Shown: piece by piece, positions 2,224 to 6,412 of the stretch
Position numbering within the stretch: position 1 is the first letter of the stretch
Layout: every line of letters begins with the position of its first letter
Sequence record: MZ436830.1
Strand: one strand, 5' to 3'
DNA from: Escherichia phage JK1
DNA length: 64,000 nt
Made by a program: the position numbers and the translations under genes
Notes under the pieces: generated by a model
The model's input: the letters and a program-made list of their open reading frames with translations, nothing else
What the model was told of the DNA's origin: nothing
Databases searched by the model: none

Positions 2224-2268
2224 AGCATTTCCTTTAGTTAATTAAGGGTTTTTATAATCCGTGGGAGT

Positions 2269-2298
2269 ATTATACTCTACTCCCAAGAGTTTGTAAAC
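2269..2298 (-). promoter_or_regulatory. T4-type early promoter (GTTTAC-N18-TATAAT) for the 1630..2223 gene
   Basis: Minus strand reads GTTTAC (2298..2293), 18-nt spacer, TATAAT (2274..2269); -10 box lies in inverted repeat GGGAGTA/TACTCCC (2263..2284). Confidence 0.6.
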
Positions 2299-2631
2299 TT
2301 ATTCTTCGTCCAATTCATCAATAAATTTATCGATACTACTATTAATAGACTCATCGATGATTAACAAAGCATCATCATCCATAATATTAATATTTTCTAA
2401 AGCATCAATATAAGCTTGATTGACTATAGACCATGCCCTTTGAAAATATGGGGCTTCATCATCAGGACTGAACCAACGTACACCTTCAAAGATACGTTTG
2501 GCATAATCTAACACCCATTGTACAGGCATGTTTTGAGAACGTTCGTTAAACTCTTTAAAGTCCTTAGATTCAAAAAGCTCTTCAGGATAATAATTTCTAT
2601 TACAAAAAGCTTTACTAAAGTTACGTTTCAT
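2299..2631 (-). CDS. hypothetical protein with acidic C-terminus
   Basis: ORF track 110 aa; early-promoter-like element immediately upstream. Confidence 0.5.
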   Translation of the reverse strand: MKRNFSKAFCNRNYYPEELFESKDFKEFNERSQNMPVQWVLDYAKRIFEGVRWFSPDDEAPYFQRAWSIVNQAYIDALENINIMDDDALLIIDESINSSIDKFIDELDEE

Positions 2632-2657
2632 AATGTTCTCCTCAAAGTTATAGGCTC

Positions 2658-2687
2658 ATAATATCTCAATCATGAGCCTGTGTAAAC
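2658..2687 (-). promoter_or_regulatory. T4-type early promoter (GTTTAC-N18-TATTAT) for the 2299..2631 gene
   Basis: GTTTAC at 2687..2682 on minus, -10 TATTAT at 2663..2658; -10 flanked by 8-bp inverted repeat AGGCTCAT/ATGAGCCT (2652..2679). Confidence 0.55.
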
Positions 2688-2963
2688 TTATTTCATATTA
2701 TTGAAATATTCTTCTGCGATTTCATCGTTATCATGGTAAACTTTAGAAGACAGTTTAACATAACCTTCTGCTGTGAACATATTAATCACAACCTTTACAG
2801 TATACCACTGACCATCTTCATTACCCATTACTGCGTAAGTTTCAAACATCGGATGGTCAGGACCGATAACTTTAATATCATTCACTGTACGACCAAAATC
2901 TTCTGAAACACATTTCATAAAGAAGTTGAACAGTTCGCCGTAATTATCCATTTCATTCTCCAA
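2688..2963 (-). CDS. hypothetical protein
   Basis: ORF track 91 aa; early-promoter-like element upstream at 2995..3024. Confidence 0.5.
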   Translation of the reverse strand: MENEMDNYGELFNFFMKCVSEDFGRTVNDIKVIGPDHPMFETYAVMGNEDGQWYTVKVVINMFTAEGYVKLSSKVYHDNDEIAEEYFNNMK

Positions 2964-2994
2964 GTTGTTTTCTGTATCAGTAGTTGATAGTTGT

Positions 2995-3024
2995 ATAGTA
3001 CCATGGAAGGGTAAGGATGTAAAC
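2995..3024 (-). promoter_or_regulatory. T4-type early promoter (GTTTAC-N18-TACTAT) for the 2688..2963 gene
   Basis: GTTTAC at 3024..3019 on minus, TACTAT at 3000..2995. Confidence 0.5.
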
Positions 3025-3135
3025 TGTTTTGTGAAAAAAATTTTTAAAAAGTTTTGGGGAATTCTAGGGCAGGGAGGGGCAATTAAAAGATAGGATAATA
3101 TATTATAAAGGATAGAAACTAAATGATGTCTAGAG

Positions 3136-3186
3136 AGGCCCGGAAAGGCCTAGATACCAAAAAGCCCCAACCTTTTGGTCGGGGCT
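3136..3186 (-). terminator. tandem hairpins plus U-run after the 3194..3655 gene
   Basis: AGGCC-CGGAAA-GGCCT (3136..3151) then AGCCCCAACC-TTTT-GGTCGGGGCT (3163..3186); minus-strand RNA has the hairpin followed by UUUUU. Confidence 0.55.
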
Positions 3187-3193
3187 AAGAATG

Positions 3194-3655
3194 TTATTTG
3201 ATTTGTTTAGCAGACCAAATGCGATCTTTAATAATTTTTTGGATGTCTTCAACATACTCTAGGTCATGAGCATGTGGATTATCTTTGAAACTATGAGCTC
3301 GCGCAAGTTTCTGGCCTTCGGTCTTAATTATCAAAAGTTCTTTAAGAATTGCTTCATACCTAGAGATAATTCCTTTAGCAATATTTTTTTCTTGTGCTGC
3401 TTTAGGGTCAGCCTTAGGAGCAGGTTTACCAGAAGGTTTTTCGAAAGCCGCACCAGTAGCAACCAGGCTTTTCCAGGCGGTGGTAACATAGTTACCCACA
3501 AAGCCTTCAGCTCTCATATCGTCATAGAACTTGTACCGAGATTCGTCAGAAGCATCTTTATAAGAATATTTACCAGCTTTAATAGCAGCAGTTGCTACAG
3601 CGCGAACATCTGAAGCGGATGCTTCGGTCATTAAAAATTGAGCATAAGTTTTCAT
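3194..3655 (-). CDS. capsid-targeted internal-protein-like protein with divergent CTS (MKTYAQFLMTE)
   Basis: ORF track 153 aa; N-terminus resembles T4 internal-protein capsid targeting sequence MKTYQEFIAE with an L-x-E gp21 cleavage motif; late promoter TATAAATA 30 nt upstream; Lys/Ala-rich body. Confidence 0.55.
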   Translation of the reverse strand: MKTYAQFLMTEASASDVRAVATAAIKAGKYSYKDASDESRYKFYDDMRAEGFVGNYVTTAWKSLVATGAAFEKPSGKPAPKADPKAAQEKNIAKGIISRYEAILKELLIIKTEGQKLARAHSFKDNPHAHDLEYVEDIQKIIKDRIWSAKQIK

Positions 3656-3683
3656 TATTATTTCCTGTGTTAATTAACTCATC

Positions 3684-3691
3684 TATTTATA
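3684..3691 (-). promoter_or_regulatory. T4 late promoter TATAAATA for the 3194..3655 gene
   Basis: Plus strand tatttata is the reverse complement of TATAAATA, about 29 nt upstream of the ATG at 3655. Confidence 0.6.
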
Positions 3692-4613: not shown

Positions 4614-4623
4614 TAAATTAAAT

Positions 4624-4697
4624 TGGAGCGGATAATGAGAATCGAACTCACATCATCAGATTGGAAGTCTGAGGTAATACCATTATACGATATCCGC
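4624..4697 (-). tRNA. tRNA-Gly (anticodon UCC)
   Basis: Acceptor GCGGATA/TATCCGC, anticodon stem TCAGA/TCTGA with loop CTTCCAA, CCA encoded. Confidence 0.85.
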
Positions 4698-4702
4698 AAA
4701 TT

Positions 4703-4789
4703 TGGTGCGAGAAGTGGGACTCGAACCCACAAGGAAATCATTCCGCAGCATTTTAAGTGCTGTGCCTTTACCAATTTGACCATTCTCGC
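4703..4789 (-). tRNA. tRNA-Leu (anticodon UAA), type II
   Basis: 87 nt; acceptor GCGAGAA/TTCTCGC, anticodon loop CTTAAAA, T-arm GTGGG-TTCGAGT-CCCAC, CCA encoded; 1 nt from tRNA-Gln. Confidence 0.85.
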
Positions 4790-4790
4790 G

Positions 4791-4863
4791 CTGGGAATAA
4801 AGGACTCGAACCTTTGCATCCTGGAATCAAAATCCAGTGCCTTACCAACTTGGCTAATTCCCA
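4791..4863 (-). tRNA. tRNA-Gln (anticodon UUG)
   Basis: 5' TGGGAAT-TA-GCCAAGTTGGTAAGGC, anticodon loop TTTTGAT, T-arm AAAGG-TTCGAGT-CCTTT; no encoded CCA. Confidence 0.85.
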
Positions 4864-4949
4864 ATTATTAACAAAGGCTCTCAAACAAGAACCCTTGATG
4901 ATAGAGGGTATTAATCAGTGCGGTATGAGTTAATAATAACAAATAATTC

Positions 4950-5465
4950 TTAAAGCAAATTAAACATTTTAACGGTCGGCAAAACAATTTCTTTTTCTAT
5001 ATAAGAGTATTTAACACTCTCAACTACACGCAAAAAATCATAATCATAATACTCAGAAGCACTGCCTAAAATATTAATAAGTCCTTCAAGCACTTTATTA
5101 CCATTCACAAAGAATAAGTCAAATACGCGTTCTTCGTCTTCTTCGGATTTATTACCAAGGTCAACTTCTATATCAAAGACCTTTTTAATGAATTCTGGAT
5201 AAAGTTGTTCTGAGAACAGTCCTTCAACCAAGTATTCATAAATAAAAAGCGATTGCTCGCTGAACAAGCCATTACCACAATAACGTTCAGCTTTAGTACT
5301 AGAATGTCTACTTTTAAACTTCTTTAAAAGATATTGAAATTGTAAGATTTCATGCTCTTCTACGCCAAACAGTGTTTTAGTTTTATAGTTGTCACCATCA
5401 TTTTCCCAGGTAGTGACATCAATTACGTAACCCTGCGGAATTGTAGTACCTAAACAAATATTCAT
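4950..5465 (-). CDS. hypothetical protein
   Basis: ORF track 171 aa; in the variable block between tRNA array and gene 57B. Confidence 0.5.
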   Translation of the reverse strand: MNICLGTTIPQGYVIDVTTWENDGDNYKTKTLFGVEEHEILQFQYLLKKFKSRHSSTKAERYCGNGLFSEQSLFIYEYLVEGLFSEQLYPEFIKKVFDIEVDLGNKSEEDEERVFDLFFVNGNKVLEGLINILGSASEYYDYDFLRVVESVKYSYIEKEIVLPTVKMFNLL

Positions 5466-5755
5466 TTGCTCACCATATTAATGTAAGTATATTCAATACA
5501 TTCAAGACCCAAAGGATTCTTGAAAATATCATATTCAAGAGGACCTTTTTCCGTTTCAATAAAGAAATCAAAATTTACTGTATTAAATTTACGGTCTTCC
5601 TTCACTAATTTAACCTGAGAAGATGAACGGTCAATGTAAACCTTTTCAACTTCAAAACATGTTAAAATGCCATAATCATCAATCAAGGCTTTAGCTGCTT
5701 CTTGATCATATTTATATCCATTTTCAATGGATGATACTTTAGCATAAAGAATCAT
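5462..5755 (-). CDS. hypothetical protein
   Basis: ORF track 97 aa; 4-nt overlap with downstream gene. Confidence 0.5.
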   Translation of the reverse strand: MILYAKVSSIENGYKYDQEAAKALIDDYGILTCFEVEKVYIDRSSSQVKLVKEDRKFNTVNFDFFIETEKGPLEYDIFKNPLGLECIEYTYINMVSK

Positions 5756-5757
5756 TA

Positions 5758-6168
5758 TCAGCCTCTATCAACGATAGCATGAGTATGGGCATTTACGATT
5801 TGCCACCAGTCGAAACGATTGGAACCATAATCTGGTTTATTTTCATTTTCTTTAATGATATCACGCAGTTTATCTTCTGTTTCAGCATACGCAATTAAAT
5901 CATCATATCCGCCACAAGGATAATAATTATCACCTGCGAATAAAAGAAAATTTACCTTAGATGGATTTACGTAATAATGGTCTTTAGGATATTTAGTTCC
6001 TCTCCAATCAGTTACTTCAACATAACGGTAAGAAAATCCATTTTTACTTTCAATCCAACTCCACGCTTCAAAAGGAGTATTAAAAACTTTATCAGGTATT
6101 AAATTACCTTCAAAATGAGAAGGATTTGCATAATCCCCGGCATAAACATAATATTCGTTAATACTCAT
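5758..6168 (-). CDS. hypothetical protein
   Basis: ORF track 136 aa. Confidence 0.5.
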   Translation of the reverse strand: MSINEYYVYAGDYANPSHFEGNLIPDKVFNTPFEAWSWIESKNGFSYRYVEVTDWRGTKYPKDHYYVNPSKVNFLLFAGDNYYPCGGYDDLIAYAETEDKLRDIIKENENKPDYGSNRFDWWQIVNAHTHAIVDRG

Positions 6169-6354
6169 CTATTCACCTTTAGAAATTTTATCCATAACGA
6201 TAGCGATTAAACCAATTAAAAATGCTACTACAAGTGAAAACACATTTTCTGCTGTAGTCAATAATCCACATATAAATCCAACAAACATTGAAAAACTAAA
6301 AGCGGAAGCAGAAATTGCAATAGCAACATTTCGAATTAATTCACAACGTTTCAT
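6169..6354 (-). CDS. hypothetical small hydrophobic protein (two predicted TM segments)
   Basis: ORF track 61 aa, AIAISASAFSFSMFVGFICGLL and FSLVVAFLIGLIAIVM; early promoter upstream. Confidence 0.45.
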   Translation of the reverse strand: MKRCELIRNVAIAISASAFSFSMFVGFICGLLTTAENVFSLVVAFLIGLIAIVMDKISKGE

Positions 6355-6382
6355 TTTATTCTCCTCGGTAGTTGATAGGGTA

Positions 6383-6412
6383 ATAGTATCACTACCCTAT
6401 CTAAAAGTAAAC
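6383..6412 (-). promoter_or_regulatory. T4-type early promoter (GTTTAC-N18-TACTAT) for the 6169..6354 gene
   Basis: GTTTAC at 6412..6407 on minus; -10 lies inside perfect 9-bp inverted repeat GATAGGGTA/TACCCTATC (6374..6401). Confidence 0.55.

What the first reader, a model, noticed from the sequence alone, without database searches (positions are those of the whole stretch)
2263..6412. Early promoters whose -10 box lies inside inverted repeats of different sequence
Five minus-strand elements fit GTTTAC-N18-TA(T/C)(A/T)AT (2269..2298, 2658..2687, 2995..3024, 6383..6412, 6683..6712). In three of them the -10 hexamer is bracketed by a perfect 7-9 bp inverted repeat whose sequence differs each time: GGGAGTA/TACTCCC, AGGCTCAT/ATGAGCCT and GATAGGGTA/TACCCTATC. 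Conserved geometry with unconserved sequence points to a structural role, such as a cruciform or an upstream-gene terminator hairpin overlapping the next promoter, rather than a shared operator.
Basis: seen in the sequence. Interest (0 to 1): 0.4.

Follow-up and report, generated by a model that had tools for sequence, protein, structure and literature searches.

The report
Stem-loops built into T4-type early promoters
In this T4-like phage, many early promoters carry a hairpin whose loop is the -10 box; the pattern is real and conserved by compensating mutations, but it matches the promoter/stem-loop cassettes (PeSLs) already described in T4-type phages.

Summary
The window is a Tequatrovirus (T4-like coliphage). 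The finding lies in the 57B / internal-protein / tRNA / e.8-e.6 early region on the minus strand.

**Observation:** all five GTTTAC-N18-TAYWAT sites and all three inverted repeats are confirmed, and they are far beyond chance. In the full T4 genome, stems of at least 7 bp bracket the -10 at 9 of 40 early promoters, against 3% of other -10-like hexamers (p = 4e-6). The enrichment sits only at the -10.

- a fourth case at 62817..62856;
- a G·U-containing composite hairpin at the 6683..6712 element.

**Evidence for selection on pairing:** orthologues and paralogues keep the pairing through compensatory changes. Stems unrelated in sequence share a dyad axis at -11.5. Wobble changes and folding energies favour the sense strand, so an RNA hairpin is more likely than a cruciform.

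**What the hairpins are not:** none has a U-tract, so they are not canonical terminators. They occur preferentially where the promoter abuts the upstream stop codon.

**Best reading:** these are PeSL-like composite elements (Repoila 1994; Arbiol 2010; Comeau 2014). The hairpin forms only on read-through RNA and caps the upstream cistron. The repeated promoter halves flank exchangeable gene cassettes. The hairpin's function is inferred, not shown.

Known kind; modest interest.

The parts
2262..2298 (-). Early promoter in front of the e.6 homologue, with built-in hairpin. -35 GTTTAC at 2298..2293, directly after the e.7 stop codon TAA. 5' arm TGGGAGTA at 2285..2278; loop gagTATAA; -10 TATAAT at 2274..2269; 3' arm TACTCCCA at 2269..2262. 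Predicted start site about 2262.
   Evidence: 8 bp, p = 0.0035; -14.6 kcal/mol, z = -2.5. The same scaffold carries different stems elsewhere: GGGACCA/TGGTCCC at T4 7186 and GAGGACA/TGTCCTC in IME08.
2652..2687 (-). Early promoter in front of e.7, with built-in hairpin. -35 at 2687..2682, directly after the e.8 stop codon. 5' arm AGGCTCAT at 2679..2672; 12-nt loop; -10 TATTAT at 2663..2658; 3' arm ATGAGCCT at 2659..2652. Predicted start site about 2651.
   Evidence: p = 0.0025; -16.8 kcal/mol, z = -4.6. There is a compensatory A-T to G-C change in ECO78 and IME08, and the stem is extended to 10 bp in IME08 and an IMG/VR contig.
2995..3024 (-). Early promoter in front of e.8, without a hairpin. 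It belongs to the repeated 'tggTACTATacaactatcaactac' promoter-leader family and lies about 140 nt downstream of a canonical terminator at 3163..3186.
   Evidence: 3 bp, p = 0.86; z = +0.37; terminator; family copies in T4.
6374..6412 (-). Early promoter in front of tRNA.4, with built-in hairpin. -35 at 6412..6407, directly after the stop codon of the internal-protein-like ORF. 5' arm GATAGGGTA at 6401..6393; loop gtgaTACTAT; -10 at 6388..6383; 3' arm TACCCTATC at 6382..6374.
   Evidence: 9 bp, p = 0.0045; -17.4 kcal/mol, z = -3.0. The related T4 promoter at 73910 has GATGAGGTA/TACCTCATC in the same register.
6658..6725 (-). Early promoter after 57B (-35 at 6712..6707, -10 at 6688..6683) embedded in a 68-nt composite hairpin. 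AUUUCACA pairs with UGUGAAAU, the latter one base upstream of the GGAG ribosome-binding site. UUGUUU pairs with AAAACA. AUGGGGU (6706..6700) pairs with ACCCUAU (6682..6676) with one G·U. UAGUA pairs with UACUA.
   Evidence: -26.5 kcal/mol, z = -5.4, 0 of 200 shuffles as stable. repeat family D6: it is a direct repeat (41 nt, 80%) of the 6372..6412 element.
6413..6646 (-). Internal-protein-like ORF of 77 aa starting MKTYQEFIAE. It is the cassette flanked by the two repeated promoter elements.
   Evidence: The identical arrangement in PhiZZ23 is annotated 'internal virion protein'. This slot holds different genes in T4, RB14, IME08 and phiE142, and none in slur02.
62817..62856 (-). It is identical to T4 129890 (in front of 30.7).
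   Evidence: 8 bp, p = 0.0065; -19.2 kcal/mol, z = -4.0.
54234..54289 (-). Early promoter (54260..54289) with a related but different design. A 13-bp stem with two G·U pairs, CCUCGUGUUGUGU / ACAUAACAUGAGG, has a 3' arm that covers the ribosome-binding site of the downstream gene. Its T4 counterpart at 123064 lies in front of alt.-3.
   Evidence: -23 kcal/mol, z = -3.6.
63236..63286 (-). Early promoter (63257..63286) whose hairpin UUCCUUUGU / ACAAAGGAG places the ribosome-binding site in the 3' arm.
   Evidence: -12.5 kcal/mol, z = -1.4; weak.

Best explanation
**What it is.** These are composite promoter/stem-loop elements of the kind published as PeSLs (promoter-early stem-loops), in their T-even form. 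Each is a strong host-polymerase early promoter: AT-rich upstream region, -35 GTTTAC, TGn, and a -10. It sits directly behind the stop codon of the preceding small early gene.

**How the hairpin is encoded.** The two arms use the parts of the promoter that are free to vary: the spacer from about -30 to -16, and the stretch from -7 to about +1 to +5. The sequence-constrained extended -10 is the loop. This places the dyad axis at about -11.5.

**Where the hairpin can form.** It can form only in RNA that started further upstream. It makes a stem-loop that begins 8-13 nt after the upstream stop codon and ends about where the promoter's own transcripts begin. Transcripts started at the promoter itself lack the 5' arm.

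**Most likely action (inferred).** The hairpin is the 3' cap of the upstream cistron. It would block 3'-exonucleases after read-through RNA is cut, and/or attenuate read-through. Each small gene would then be a self-contained expression cassette.

**Second role (inferred from comparative data).** The conserved promoter halves on either side of a cassette give short homologies at which cassettes are swapped, deleted or inserted between related phages.

**Shown versus inferred.**
- Shown here: the motif, the stems, their excess over chance, their fixed position, compensatory evolution, the sense-strand bias, the lack of U-tracts, and the cassette polymorphism.
- Inferred: that the RNA hairpin forms in vivo, and what it does.
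For: - **Identity of the window.** Tequatrovirus, 97% identical to its best match. The gene order matches RB27 and T4.
- **Excess over chance.** 8 of 41 T4 sites and 4 of 9 window sites have p < 0.01 against shuffles. At T4 promoters, 9 of 40 have stems of at least 7 bp, against 3.1% of background hexamers (odds ratio 9.1, p = 4e-6); the excess is confined to the -10.
- **Fixed geometry.** In 105 unselected promoters, dyad axes with runs of at least 6 bp number 19 at -11.5 and 11 at -14.5, and 0-3 at every other position.
- **Compensatory evolution.**
  - AGGCTCAT/ATGAGCCT becomes GGGCTCAT/ATGAGCCC.
  - GGGAGTA/TACTCCC, GGGACCA/TGGTCCC and GAGGACA/TGTCCTC occur on one scaffold.
  - GATAGGGTA/TACCCTATC corresponds to GATGAGGTA/TACCTCATC.
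  - GACAAGATT/AATCTTGTC corresponds to GACAAGACT/AGTCTTGTC.
  - 10 of 11 stem pairs show changes on both sides.
- **Sense-strand bias.** Wobble states are mostly G·U on the sense strand. Sense RNA is more stable than antisense in 10 of 12 families (p = 0.016).
- **Stability.** Free energies of -14.6 to -26.5 kcal/mol, z from -2.5 to -5.4.
- **Placement.** Hairpin promoters abut an upstream stop codon (within 15 nt) in 25 of 32 cases, against 42 of 86 for the others (p = 0.006). None of the 32 follows a canonical terminator, against 8 of 86 (p = 0.11). Stems start at -30 to -20 and end at -1 to +9.
- **Cassette behaviour.**
  - Direct repeats flank the internal-protein-like ORF.
  - The ipI slot and the e.8-e.6 slot hold different genes in different phages.
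  - Chimeric promoters with mismatched arms occur, such as RB14 locus L016 2301..2330.
  - The window's e.6 promoter is a copy of the promoter found in front of motB in T4 and T2.
- **Literature.**
  - PeSLs are defined as an early promoter plus a stem-loop, most commonly between -35 and -10 or overlapping the -10. One RB49 stem-loop cut downstream lacZ expression about as much as the rrnB T1 terminator (PMC2839356).
  - The T4/PST PeSL consensus is TTTACW-N17-TAYWAT (PMC4122927).
  - The elements at the T-even internal-protein loci are described as T4-early-promoter-based analogues with weaker, AT-rich stem-loops (PMC2839356).
  - RB49 PeSLs re-examined here include -10-bracketing stems with the same axis of -11.5.
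Against: - No transcript-end data for T4-type phages could be found in the library, so formation and function of the RNA hairpin are unverified.
- No U-tract follows any stem, so efficient intrinsic termination is not expected.
- The hairpin is dispensable at individual promoters. It is lost in ECO78, replaced by a weak 6-bp stem in T4 at the e.6 promoter, and broken in chimeric promoters. Many promoters that abut a stop codon have none.
- Part of the G·U excess comes from the conserved gtgaTACTAT motif, and many sequences are homologous, so the p-values overstate independence.
- The legend of Fig. 3 of Comeau 2014 places the PST stem-loops 'just upstream of' the promoter. The exact -10-bracketing geometry may therefore not be what that paper catalogued for T4/PST.
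- G·T pairs would also be tolerated in a hairpin of the non-template DNA strand alone.
Confidence: 0.6

Rival explanations
1. The hairpin regulates the downstream gene on read-through RNA rather than protecting the upstream one. It would mask or hinder the ribosome-binding site or the RegB cleavage site (GGAG). The gene would then be translated efficiently only from its own promoter's transcript, which lacks the 5' arm. This is the logic known for T4 genes e, soc, 49 and I-TevI (recalled from the T4 literature, not checked here).
For: - Two promoters in the window do place the ribosome-binding site in the 3' arm: 54234..54289 (13 bp with two G·U, -23 kcal/mol) and 63236..63286.
- The composite hairpin at 6658..6725 ends one base before GGAG.
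- The design, with the promoter inside the hairpin so that its own transcript lacks the 5' arm, is shared.
- RegB is inhibited by RNA secondary structure (PMC3014915).
Against: In the three elements of the finding, and at 62817..62856, the 3' arm ends at -1 to +5. The ribosome-binding site lies 8-9 nt (two elements) to 28 nt downstream, outside the stem. A hairpin ending that far upstream is not expected to block initiation.
Confidence: 0.15
2. The inverted repeat works in DNA as part of the recombination machinery of cassette shuffling. It could be a hairpin or cruciform target, or a template-switch site. The RNA hairpin would then be incidental.
For: - Cassette polymorphism occurs exactly at these elements.
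- Direct repeats flank the cassettes.
- Chimeric promoters have crossovers in the shared loop region.
Against: - Homologous exchange needs the shared promoter sequence, not arms that pair.
- Recombination between different elements breaks stems (chimeras), yet stems are maintained by compensatory changes within lineages.
- The strand asymmetry (G·U tolerated, A·C rare) is not expected for a two-stranded cruciform.
Confidence: 0.12
3. The repeat acts on the promoter itself. Extrusion of a cruciform, or a hairpin on the non-template strand, would present the -10 as single-stranded DNA and help or time promoter opening.
For: - The dyad axis lies at -11.5, the upstream edge of the transcription bubble, in several stem families unrelated in sequence. 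The same axis is seen in RB49.
- G·T tolerance on the sense (non-template) strand is compatible with a hairpin on that strand only.
Against: - The axis is also what follows simply from putting the extended -10 in the loop.
- Equally good consensus promoters lack any repeat, for example the tggTACTAT family.
- A cruciform would carry A·C mismatches on the template strand.
- Injected T4 DNA is linear, so supercoil-driven extrusion is doubtful (general knowledge).
- In the open complex the 5' arm (-30 to -16) stays double-stranded (general knowledge of sigma-70 open complexes).
Confidence: 0.08
4. The repeats are chance matches in AT-rich promoter DNA, or relics of duplication with no selection.
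For: Some 6-bp stems are individually not significant (p = 0.1-0.2).
Against: - Genome-wide excess (p = 4e-6) that is specific to the -10 position.
- Stems up to 14 bp that no shuffle reaches.
- Compensatory double changes.
Confidence: 0.01

Closest known systems
PeSL (promoter-early stem-loop) cassettes of coliphages RB49 and phi1 (Arbiol et al. 2010, PMC2839356)
   Same: - An early host-type promoter with an AT-rich upstream region.
- The upstream stop codon and the downstream ribosome-binding site lie within one short intergenic element.
- The stem-loop lies inside the promoter, commonly overlapping the -10.
- The elements flank small exchangeable ORFs in variable regions.
- RB49 elements re-read here include -10-bracketing stems with the same dyad axis of -11.5.
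   Different: - RB49 uses a near-perfect TTGACA-N17-TATAAT promoter and G-run/C-run stems, most of them lying wholly in the spacer with the axis at -21.
- Here the -35 is GTTTAC with an N18 spacer (N17 counted from TTTACW). The stems are 44% G+C, differ in sequence from element to element, and almost always bracket the -10.
- The authors themselves call the T-even elements analogues, not homologues.
- Attenuation and mini-circles were shown only for RB49 and phi1.
PeSLs of T4 and Yersinia phage PST (Comeau et al. 2014, PMC4122927), and the repeated promoter elements at T-even internal-protein loci (Repoila et al. 1994, as cited in PMC2839356)
   Same: - The same phage group and the same promoter consensus (TTTACW-N17-TAYWAT).
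- The same association with insertions, deletions and replacements between close relatives.
   Different: - The 2014 figure legend describes the stem-loops as lying just upstream of the promoter and gives AGNA-loop-TCNT as a frequent form.
- The elements here have the -10 in the loop, with varied stems.
- The figures and the 1994 paper could not be read, so I cannot say whether these exact hairpins were drawn there.
Intrinsic (Rho-independent) terminators
   Same: A stable stem-loop in RNA just after a stop codon. In this genome, promoters tend to be preceded by a canonical terminator or to carry the built-in hairpin, not both: 0 of 32 hairpin promoters follow a terminator, against 8 of 86 others.
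   Different: There is no U-tract after any of the 32 distinct stems, and loops run up to 18 nt. True terminators in the window (3163..3186 and 3698..3721) look quite different: 10 bp, 7 G-C pairs, a 4-nt loop, then TTTTT.
T4 hairpins that hide a ribosome-binding site on long transcripts, with a promoter inside the hairpin (genes e, soc, 49, I-TevI; from the T4 literature, recalled, not checked here)
   Same: The promoter lies within the hairpin, so only RNA started upstream can fold it.
   Different: In those cases the internal promoter is a late or middle one, and the 3' arm covers the ribosome-binding site. Here the promoter is an early one. For the elements of the finding, the 3' arm stops near +1, short of the ribosome-binding site. 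Only 54234..54289 and 63236..63286 fit that design.

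Membership tests
PeSL-type composite promoter/stem-loop element | Strong host-sigma early promoter with an AT-rich upstream region | tested here: met
   There are five exact GTTTAC-N18-TAYWAT sites. This equals the published T4/PST PeSL consensus. The orthologous sites are annotated as predicted early promoters in fPS-2. Promoter activity itself was not measured.
PeSL-type composite promoter/stem-loop element | Sequence able to form a stable stem-loop within or overlapping the promoter | tested here: met
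   Stems are 8-9 bp, with free energies of -14.6 to -26.5 kcal/mol and z from -2.5 to -5.4. The excess over genome background has p = 4e-6. Covariation is shown.
PeSL-type composite promoter/stem-loop element | Short intergenic element bounded by the upstream stop codon and the downstream ribosome-binding site and start codon | tested here: met
   TAA abuts GTTTAC in three elements and lies 12 nt upstream in a fourth. A ribosome-binding site and ATG follow within about 20-45 nt.
PeSL-type composite promoter/stem-loop element | Flanks small non-essential ORFs that are inserted, deleted or replaced between close relatives | tested here: met
   The ipI slot and the e.8-e.6 slot differ among T4, RB14, slur02, PhiZZ23, IME08, phiE142 and the window. 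Flanking direct repeats are, and chimeric promoters.
PeSL-type composite promoter/stem-loop element | The stem-loop attenuates or terminates transcription coming from upstream | not testable with these tools
   This was shown only for one RB49 stem-loop in a lacZ fusion. No U-tract is present here.
PeSL-type composite promoter/stem-loop element | Recombination between neighbouring elements gives excised mini-circles | not testable with these tools
   This needs inverse PCR on infected cells or virions. Only comparative traces were seen: the slur02 single promoter looks like a recombinant of the two window elements.
Intrinsic terminator | G+C-rich stem with a short loop, followed by a run of U | tested here: not met
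   0 of 32 stems are followed by at least 5 U in 8 nt; the mean is 2.0 U and the stems average 44% G+C. None of the elements is in the terminator-like list.
Translational-masking hairpin (T4 e / soc / 49 type) | The 3' arm pairs with the ribosome-binding site or start codon of the downstream gene | tested here: not met
   This is not met for 2262..2298, 2652..2687, 6374..6412 and 62817..62856, where the stems end at -1 to +5. It is borderline for 6658..6725. It is met for 54234..54289 and 63236..63286.
Shared palindromic operator for a dimeric regulator | The same half-site sequence at every site | tested here: not met
   The arms differ at every position between families, while the pairing register is kept.
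Known RNA families (Rfam) | Match to a curated covariance model | tested here: not met
   Only tRNAs and sub-threshold chance hits were found in 2000..7300; nothing lies at the promoter hairpins.

The most novel reading that the evidence does not exclude
The dyad axis is pinned at -11.5, exactly where sigma-70 starts to open the DNA. This holds in at least six stem families unrelated in sequence, and in two genera with different promoter consensus sequences (T4-type and RB49). That placement could be more than a packing consequence. A hairpin on the non-template strand, or a transient cruciform, might present the -10 in single-stranded form. This could contribute to the exceptional strength of these early promoters, or to their abrupt and still unexplained shut-off.
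Probability: 0.07. Interest if true: 0.7.

Novelty: new member of a known kind. Interest (0 to 1): 0.3.

Why it matters
The finding shows how tightly T4-type phages pack signals. One stretch of about 45 bp holds a stop codon, a full promoter and a hairpin written into the promoter's free positions.

If the hairpin does cap the upstream message, each small early gene is an insulated, portable expression cassette. That would help to explain how accessory genes such as the injected internal proteins are shuffled between phages.

The element class is published, so the gain here is quantitative:
- a genome-wide test against chance;
- the fixed axis at -11.5;
- the sense-strand bias;
- the link to promoters that abut a stop codon.

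The function in T-even phages has, as far as I could find, never been tested. It could be settled with standard transcript-end mapping.

Tried and rejected
- **Transcript-end data.** Three literature searches for T4 5'/3' end mapping (Term-seq, cappable-seq, primary transcriptome) found nothing usable. Two further searches failed on syntax.
- **Papers not held.** Repoila 1994 and the Miller 2003 T4 genome review are not in the library. Comeau 2014 has no held supplements.
- **IMG/VR search with the e.7 protein.** It gave only two loci. I used GenBank phage records instead and a DNA pattern scan.
- **Pooled covariation count.** Pooling a 22-member promoter family proved meaningless, because the family mixes three stem registers. 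I regrouped the promoters by register.
- **G·U-inclusive versus A·C-inclusive stem length.** The result was 19 against 4, but it is inflated by the conserved gtgaTACTAT motif. I therefore rely on family-level counts and energies.
- **Mutual exclusion with upstream canonical terminators.** The trend is in the predicted direction but not significant (p = 0.11).
- **Rfam.** Nothing was found at the hairpins.
- **Readings rejected.** Chance, a shared operator and a canonical terminator are rejected for the reasons given in the membership tests.

Full report
**What the window is.** The 4.9-kb region of the finding matches more than 1100 T4-like phage records. The best match is 97% identical over its full length. 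The gene order on the minus strand is 57B, an internal-protein slot, tRNA.4-tRNA.2, ten tRNAs, rnaD/rnaC, e.8, e.7 and e.6. This follows the RB27 and T4 annotations. These are early genes, all read from the minus strand.

**Checking the observation.** The pattern GTTTAC-N18-TAYWAT occurs five times, all on the minus strand and at the stated coordinates. Chance expectation is 0.07.

The three inverted repeats are present:
- TGGGAGTA/TACTCCCA, one pair longer than stated;
- AGGCTCAT/ATGAGCCT;
- GATAGGGTA/TACCCTATC.

I held the -10 hexamer fixed and shuffled the spacer and the 16 downstream bases separately. Each stem was then reached in under 0.5% of 2000 shuffles.

A relaxed scan of the whole window found further promoters of this type:
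- 62828..62856 has an N17 spacer and an 8-bp repeat, GGTACAGG/CCTGTACC, around its -10.
- 54260..54289 and 63257..63286 have hairpins whose 3' arm covers the ribosome-binding site.

The 6683..6712 element was listed as repeat-free. When G·U pairs are allowed, it folds into the most stable structure of all. This is a 68-nt composite hairpin from the upstream AT-rich element to one base before GGAG, at -26.5 kcal/mol and z = -5.4. Only 2995..3024 has nothing (z = +0.4).

I assembled the full T4 genome. It has 41 minus-strand sites of the strict type.
- Eight of them have a -10-bracketing stem with p < 0.01 against shuffles. The stems reach 14 bp.
- I compared them with every other -10-like hexamer on the same strand (n = 3290). 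Stems of at least 7 bp occur at 22.5% of promoters and 3.1% of background hexamers (odds ratio 9.1, p = 4e-6).
- When the anchor is slid from -60 to +60, the excess appears only at offsets 0 and -6.

The stated refutation condition is therefore not met.

**Geometry.** I pooled T4, the window, nine GenBank relatives and 21 IMG/VR stretches. This gave 119 distinct promoters.

Among the 105 with an N18 spacer, taken without selection, dyad axes carrying at least 6 consecutive pairs number 19 at position -11.5 and 11 at -14.5. Every other position has 0 to 3.

The stems begin at -30 to -20, right after the -35 hexamer. They end at -1 to +9 relative to the predicted start site. The loop is therefore the extended -10, and the arms fill the positions of the promoter that are free to vary. 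This alone accounts for an axis near -11.5.

**Selection for pairing.** Orthologous and paralogous promoters keep the pairing while changing the sequence.
- The e.7 promoter has A-T in the window, RB27 and fPS-2, and G-C in ECO78 and IME08. The stem is lengthened to 10 bp in two phages.
- One scaffold, GTTTACaaactctt...gagTATAAT, carries three different stems:
  - GGGAGTA/TACTCCC at the window's e.6 promoter;
  - GGGACCA/TGGTCCC in front of T4 motB;
  - GAGGACA/TGTCCTC in IME08.
- On 18 promoters sharing the -11.5 register, 10 of 11 pairs show changes on both sides. The slid-partner controls collapse. That set was chosen for having a stem, so its percentage paired is biased. The unbiased evidence is.

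**RNA or DNA?** One-sided changes are mostly wobble pairs on the sense strand:
- AUAGGGU to AUGGGGU;
- UACC to UAUC;
- two wobbles in T4 20583 relative to 57961;
- U-A to U·G at the ipIII promoter;
- A-U to G·U in phiE142.

On the other strand these would be A·C mismatches. Sense RNA folds better than antisense in 10 of 12 independent stem families (p = 0.016). This argues against a symmetrical cruciform and for a sense-strand hairpin, most simply in RNA. A hairpin of the non-template DNA strand alone cannot be excluded.

**What the hairpins are not.** None of 32 distinct stems is followed by a U-tract. The terminator scan picks up only the two true terminators at 3163..3186 and 3698..3721. 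No Rfam family matches. The arm sequences differ from site to site, so the repeats are not a common operator.

**Context.** Hairpin promoters sit against the stop codon of the preceding gene more often than the others: 25 of 32 against 42 of 86 (p = 0.006). None of them follows a canonical terminator, against 8 of 86 of the rest (p = 0.11). Homology among the sequences makes these p-values optimistic.

This pattern fits a hairpin that serves the upstream message where there is no room for a separate one.

**Cassettes.**
- The two elements at 6372..6412 and 6672..6712 are direct repeats flanking a 77-aa internal-protein-like ORF.
- That slot holds ipI in T4, Ip5 plus ipI in RB14, Ip9 in IME08, two ORFs in phiE142 and nothing in slur02. 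The single slur02 promoter looks like a recombinant of the two window elements.
- The e.8-e.6 interval is equally variable.
- Chimeric promoters with mismatched arms exist.

**Comparison with what is known.** This is the PeSL picture.
- Arbiol et al. 2010 defined promoter-early stem-loops in RB49 and phi1. The stem-loop lies most often between -35 and -10 or overlaps the -10. One stem-loop reduced downstream lacZ expression about as much as rrnB T1. Recombination between neighbouring elements gave mini-circles.
- The same paper notes that Repoila et al. 1994 had seen analogous elements at the T-even internal-protein loci. These are based on T4 early promoters and have weaker, AT-rich stem-loops.
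- Comeau et al. 2014 extended PeSLs to T4/PST with the consensus TTTACW-N17-TAYWAT. Their legend, however, places the stem-loops just upstream of the promoter.
- Re-reading an RB49 variable region, I found both spacer-internal stems (axis -21) and -10-bracketing stems with axis -11.5.

**Verdict.** The 'upstream-transcript hairpin overlapping the next promoter' reading is the best supported one, but canonical termination is not. The cruciform reading is unlikely. The element class is already published. What the hairpin does in T-even phages remains untested.

Noticed in passing
window 3154-3189 and 3689-3724 (minus strand), flanking ORF 3194..3655: Two near-identical intrinsic terminators (36 nt, 92% identical; 10-bp stem, then TTTTT) flank a 153-aa ORF that starts MKTYAQFL. 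That start resembles the start of the T4 internal proteins. T4 has no gene here; RB27, fPS-2 and NBG2 do, with both terminators annotated. It looks like a cassette bounded by repeated terminators rather than repeated promoters.
   Followed up: partly
window 2995..3024 and its leader down to about 2950; T4 27051, 53914, 55355, 70667, 146846, 163644, 167057: A promoter family without any hairpin shares not only the promoter (ttccatggTACTAT) but also a nearly identical transcribed leader (acaactatcaactactgatacRgRWWWWggagaat). It recurs at least seven times in T4. Why the leader is so conserved is unexplained.
   Followed up: no
window 54234..54289; T4 123064..123093 and 136307..136336: An identical promoter plus a 13-bp hairpin with two G·U pairs covers the ribosome-binding site. 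In T4 it occurs at two distant loci, in front of alt.-3 and at the alc/rnlA junction. This suggests duplication or transfer of the whole regulatory element.
   Followed up: partly
window 2262..2298 compared with T4 7186..7215 and T2 6701-6752: The window's e.6 promoter is homologous to the promoter in front of motB in T4 and T2, not to T4's own e.6 promoter. A whole promoter element has therefore been replaced at this position.
   Followed up: partly
L009 (fPS-2) about 6425; alignment A2: In phage fPS-2 the -35 of the e.6 promoter reads GTGTAC while the hairpin is intact. The promoter may be weakened with the structure kept.
   Followed up: no
L016 (RB14) 2301..2330 and IMG/VR loci: Chimeric promoters combine the 5' half of one element with the 3' half of another, so the arms no longer pair. 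The crossover seems to lie in the shared gtgaTACTAT(TACC) core.
   Followed up: partly
window 4036..4863: The window has ten tRNA genes (including Asn, Tyr and Met) and no segB homing-endonuclease gene. T4 has eight tRNAs with segB inserted among them.
   Followed up: no
window 8173..8202 (minus strand): GTTTAA-N18-TATAAT lies just upstream of a ribosome-binding site and the ATG of the gene 1 (dNMP kinase) homologue. It is a probable further early promoter with one mismatch in the -35, and no hairpin is evident.
   Followed up: no
T4 65770..65799 (between ipIII and ipII) and T4 57961..57990: These are the two longest cases in T4: perfect 14-bp arms with an 8-nt loop that is (65770) or mostly contains (57961) the -10 hexamer. 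They would be the best targets for an experimental test.
   Followed up: no
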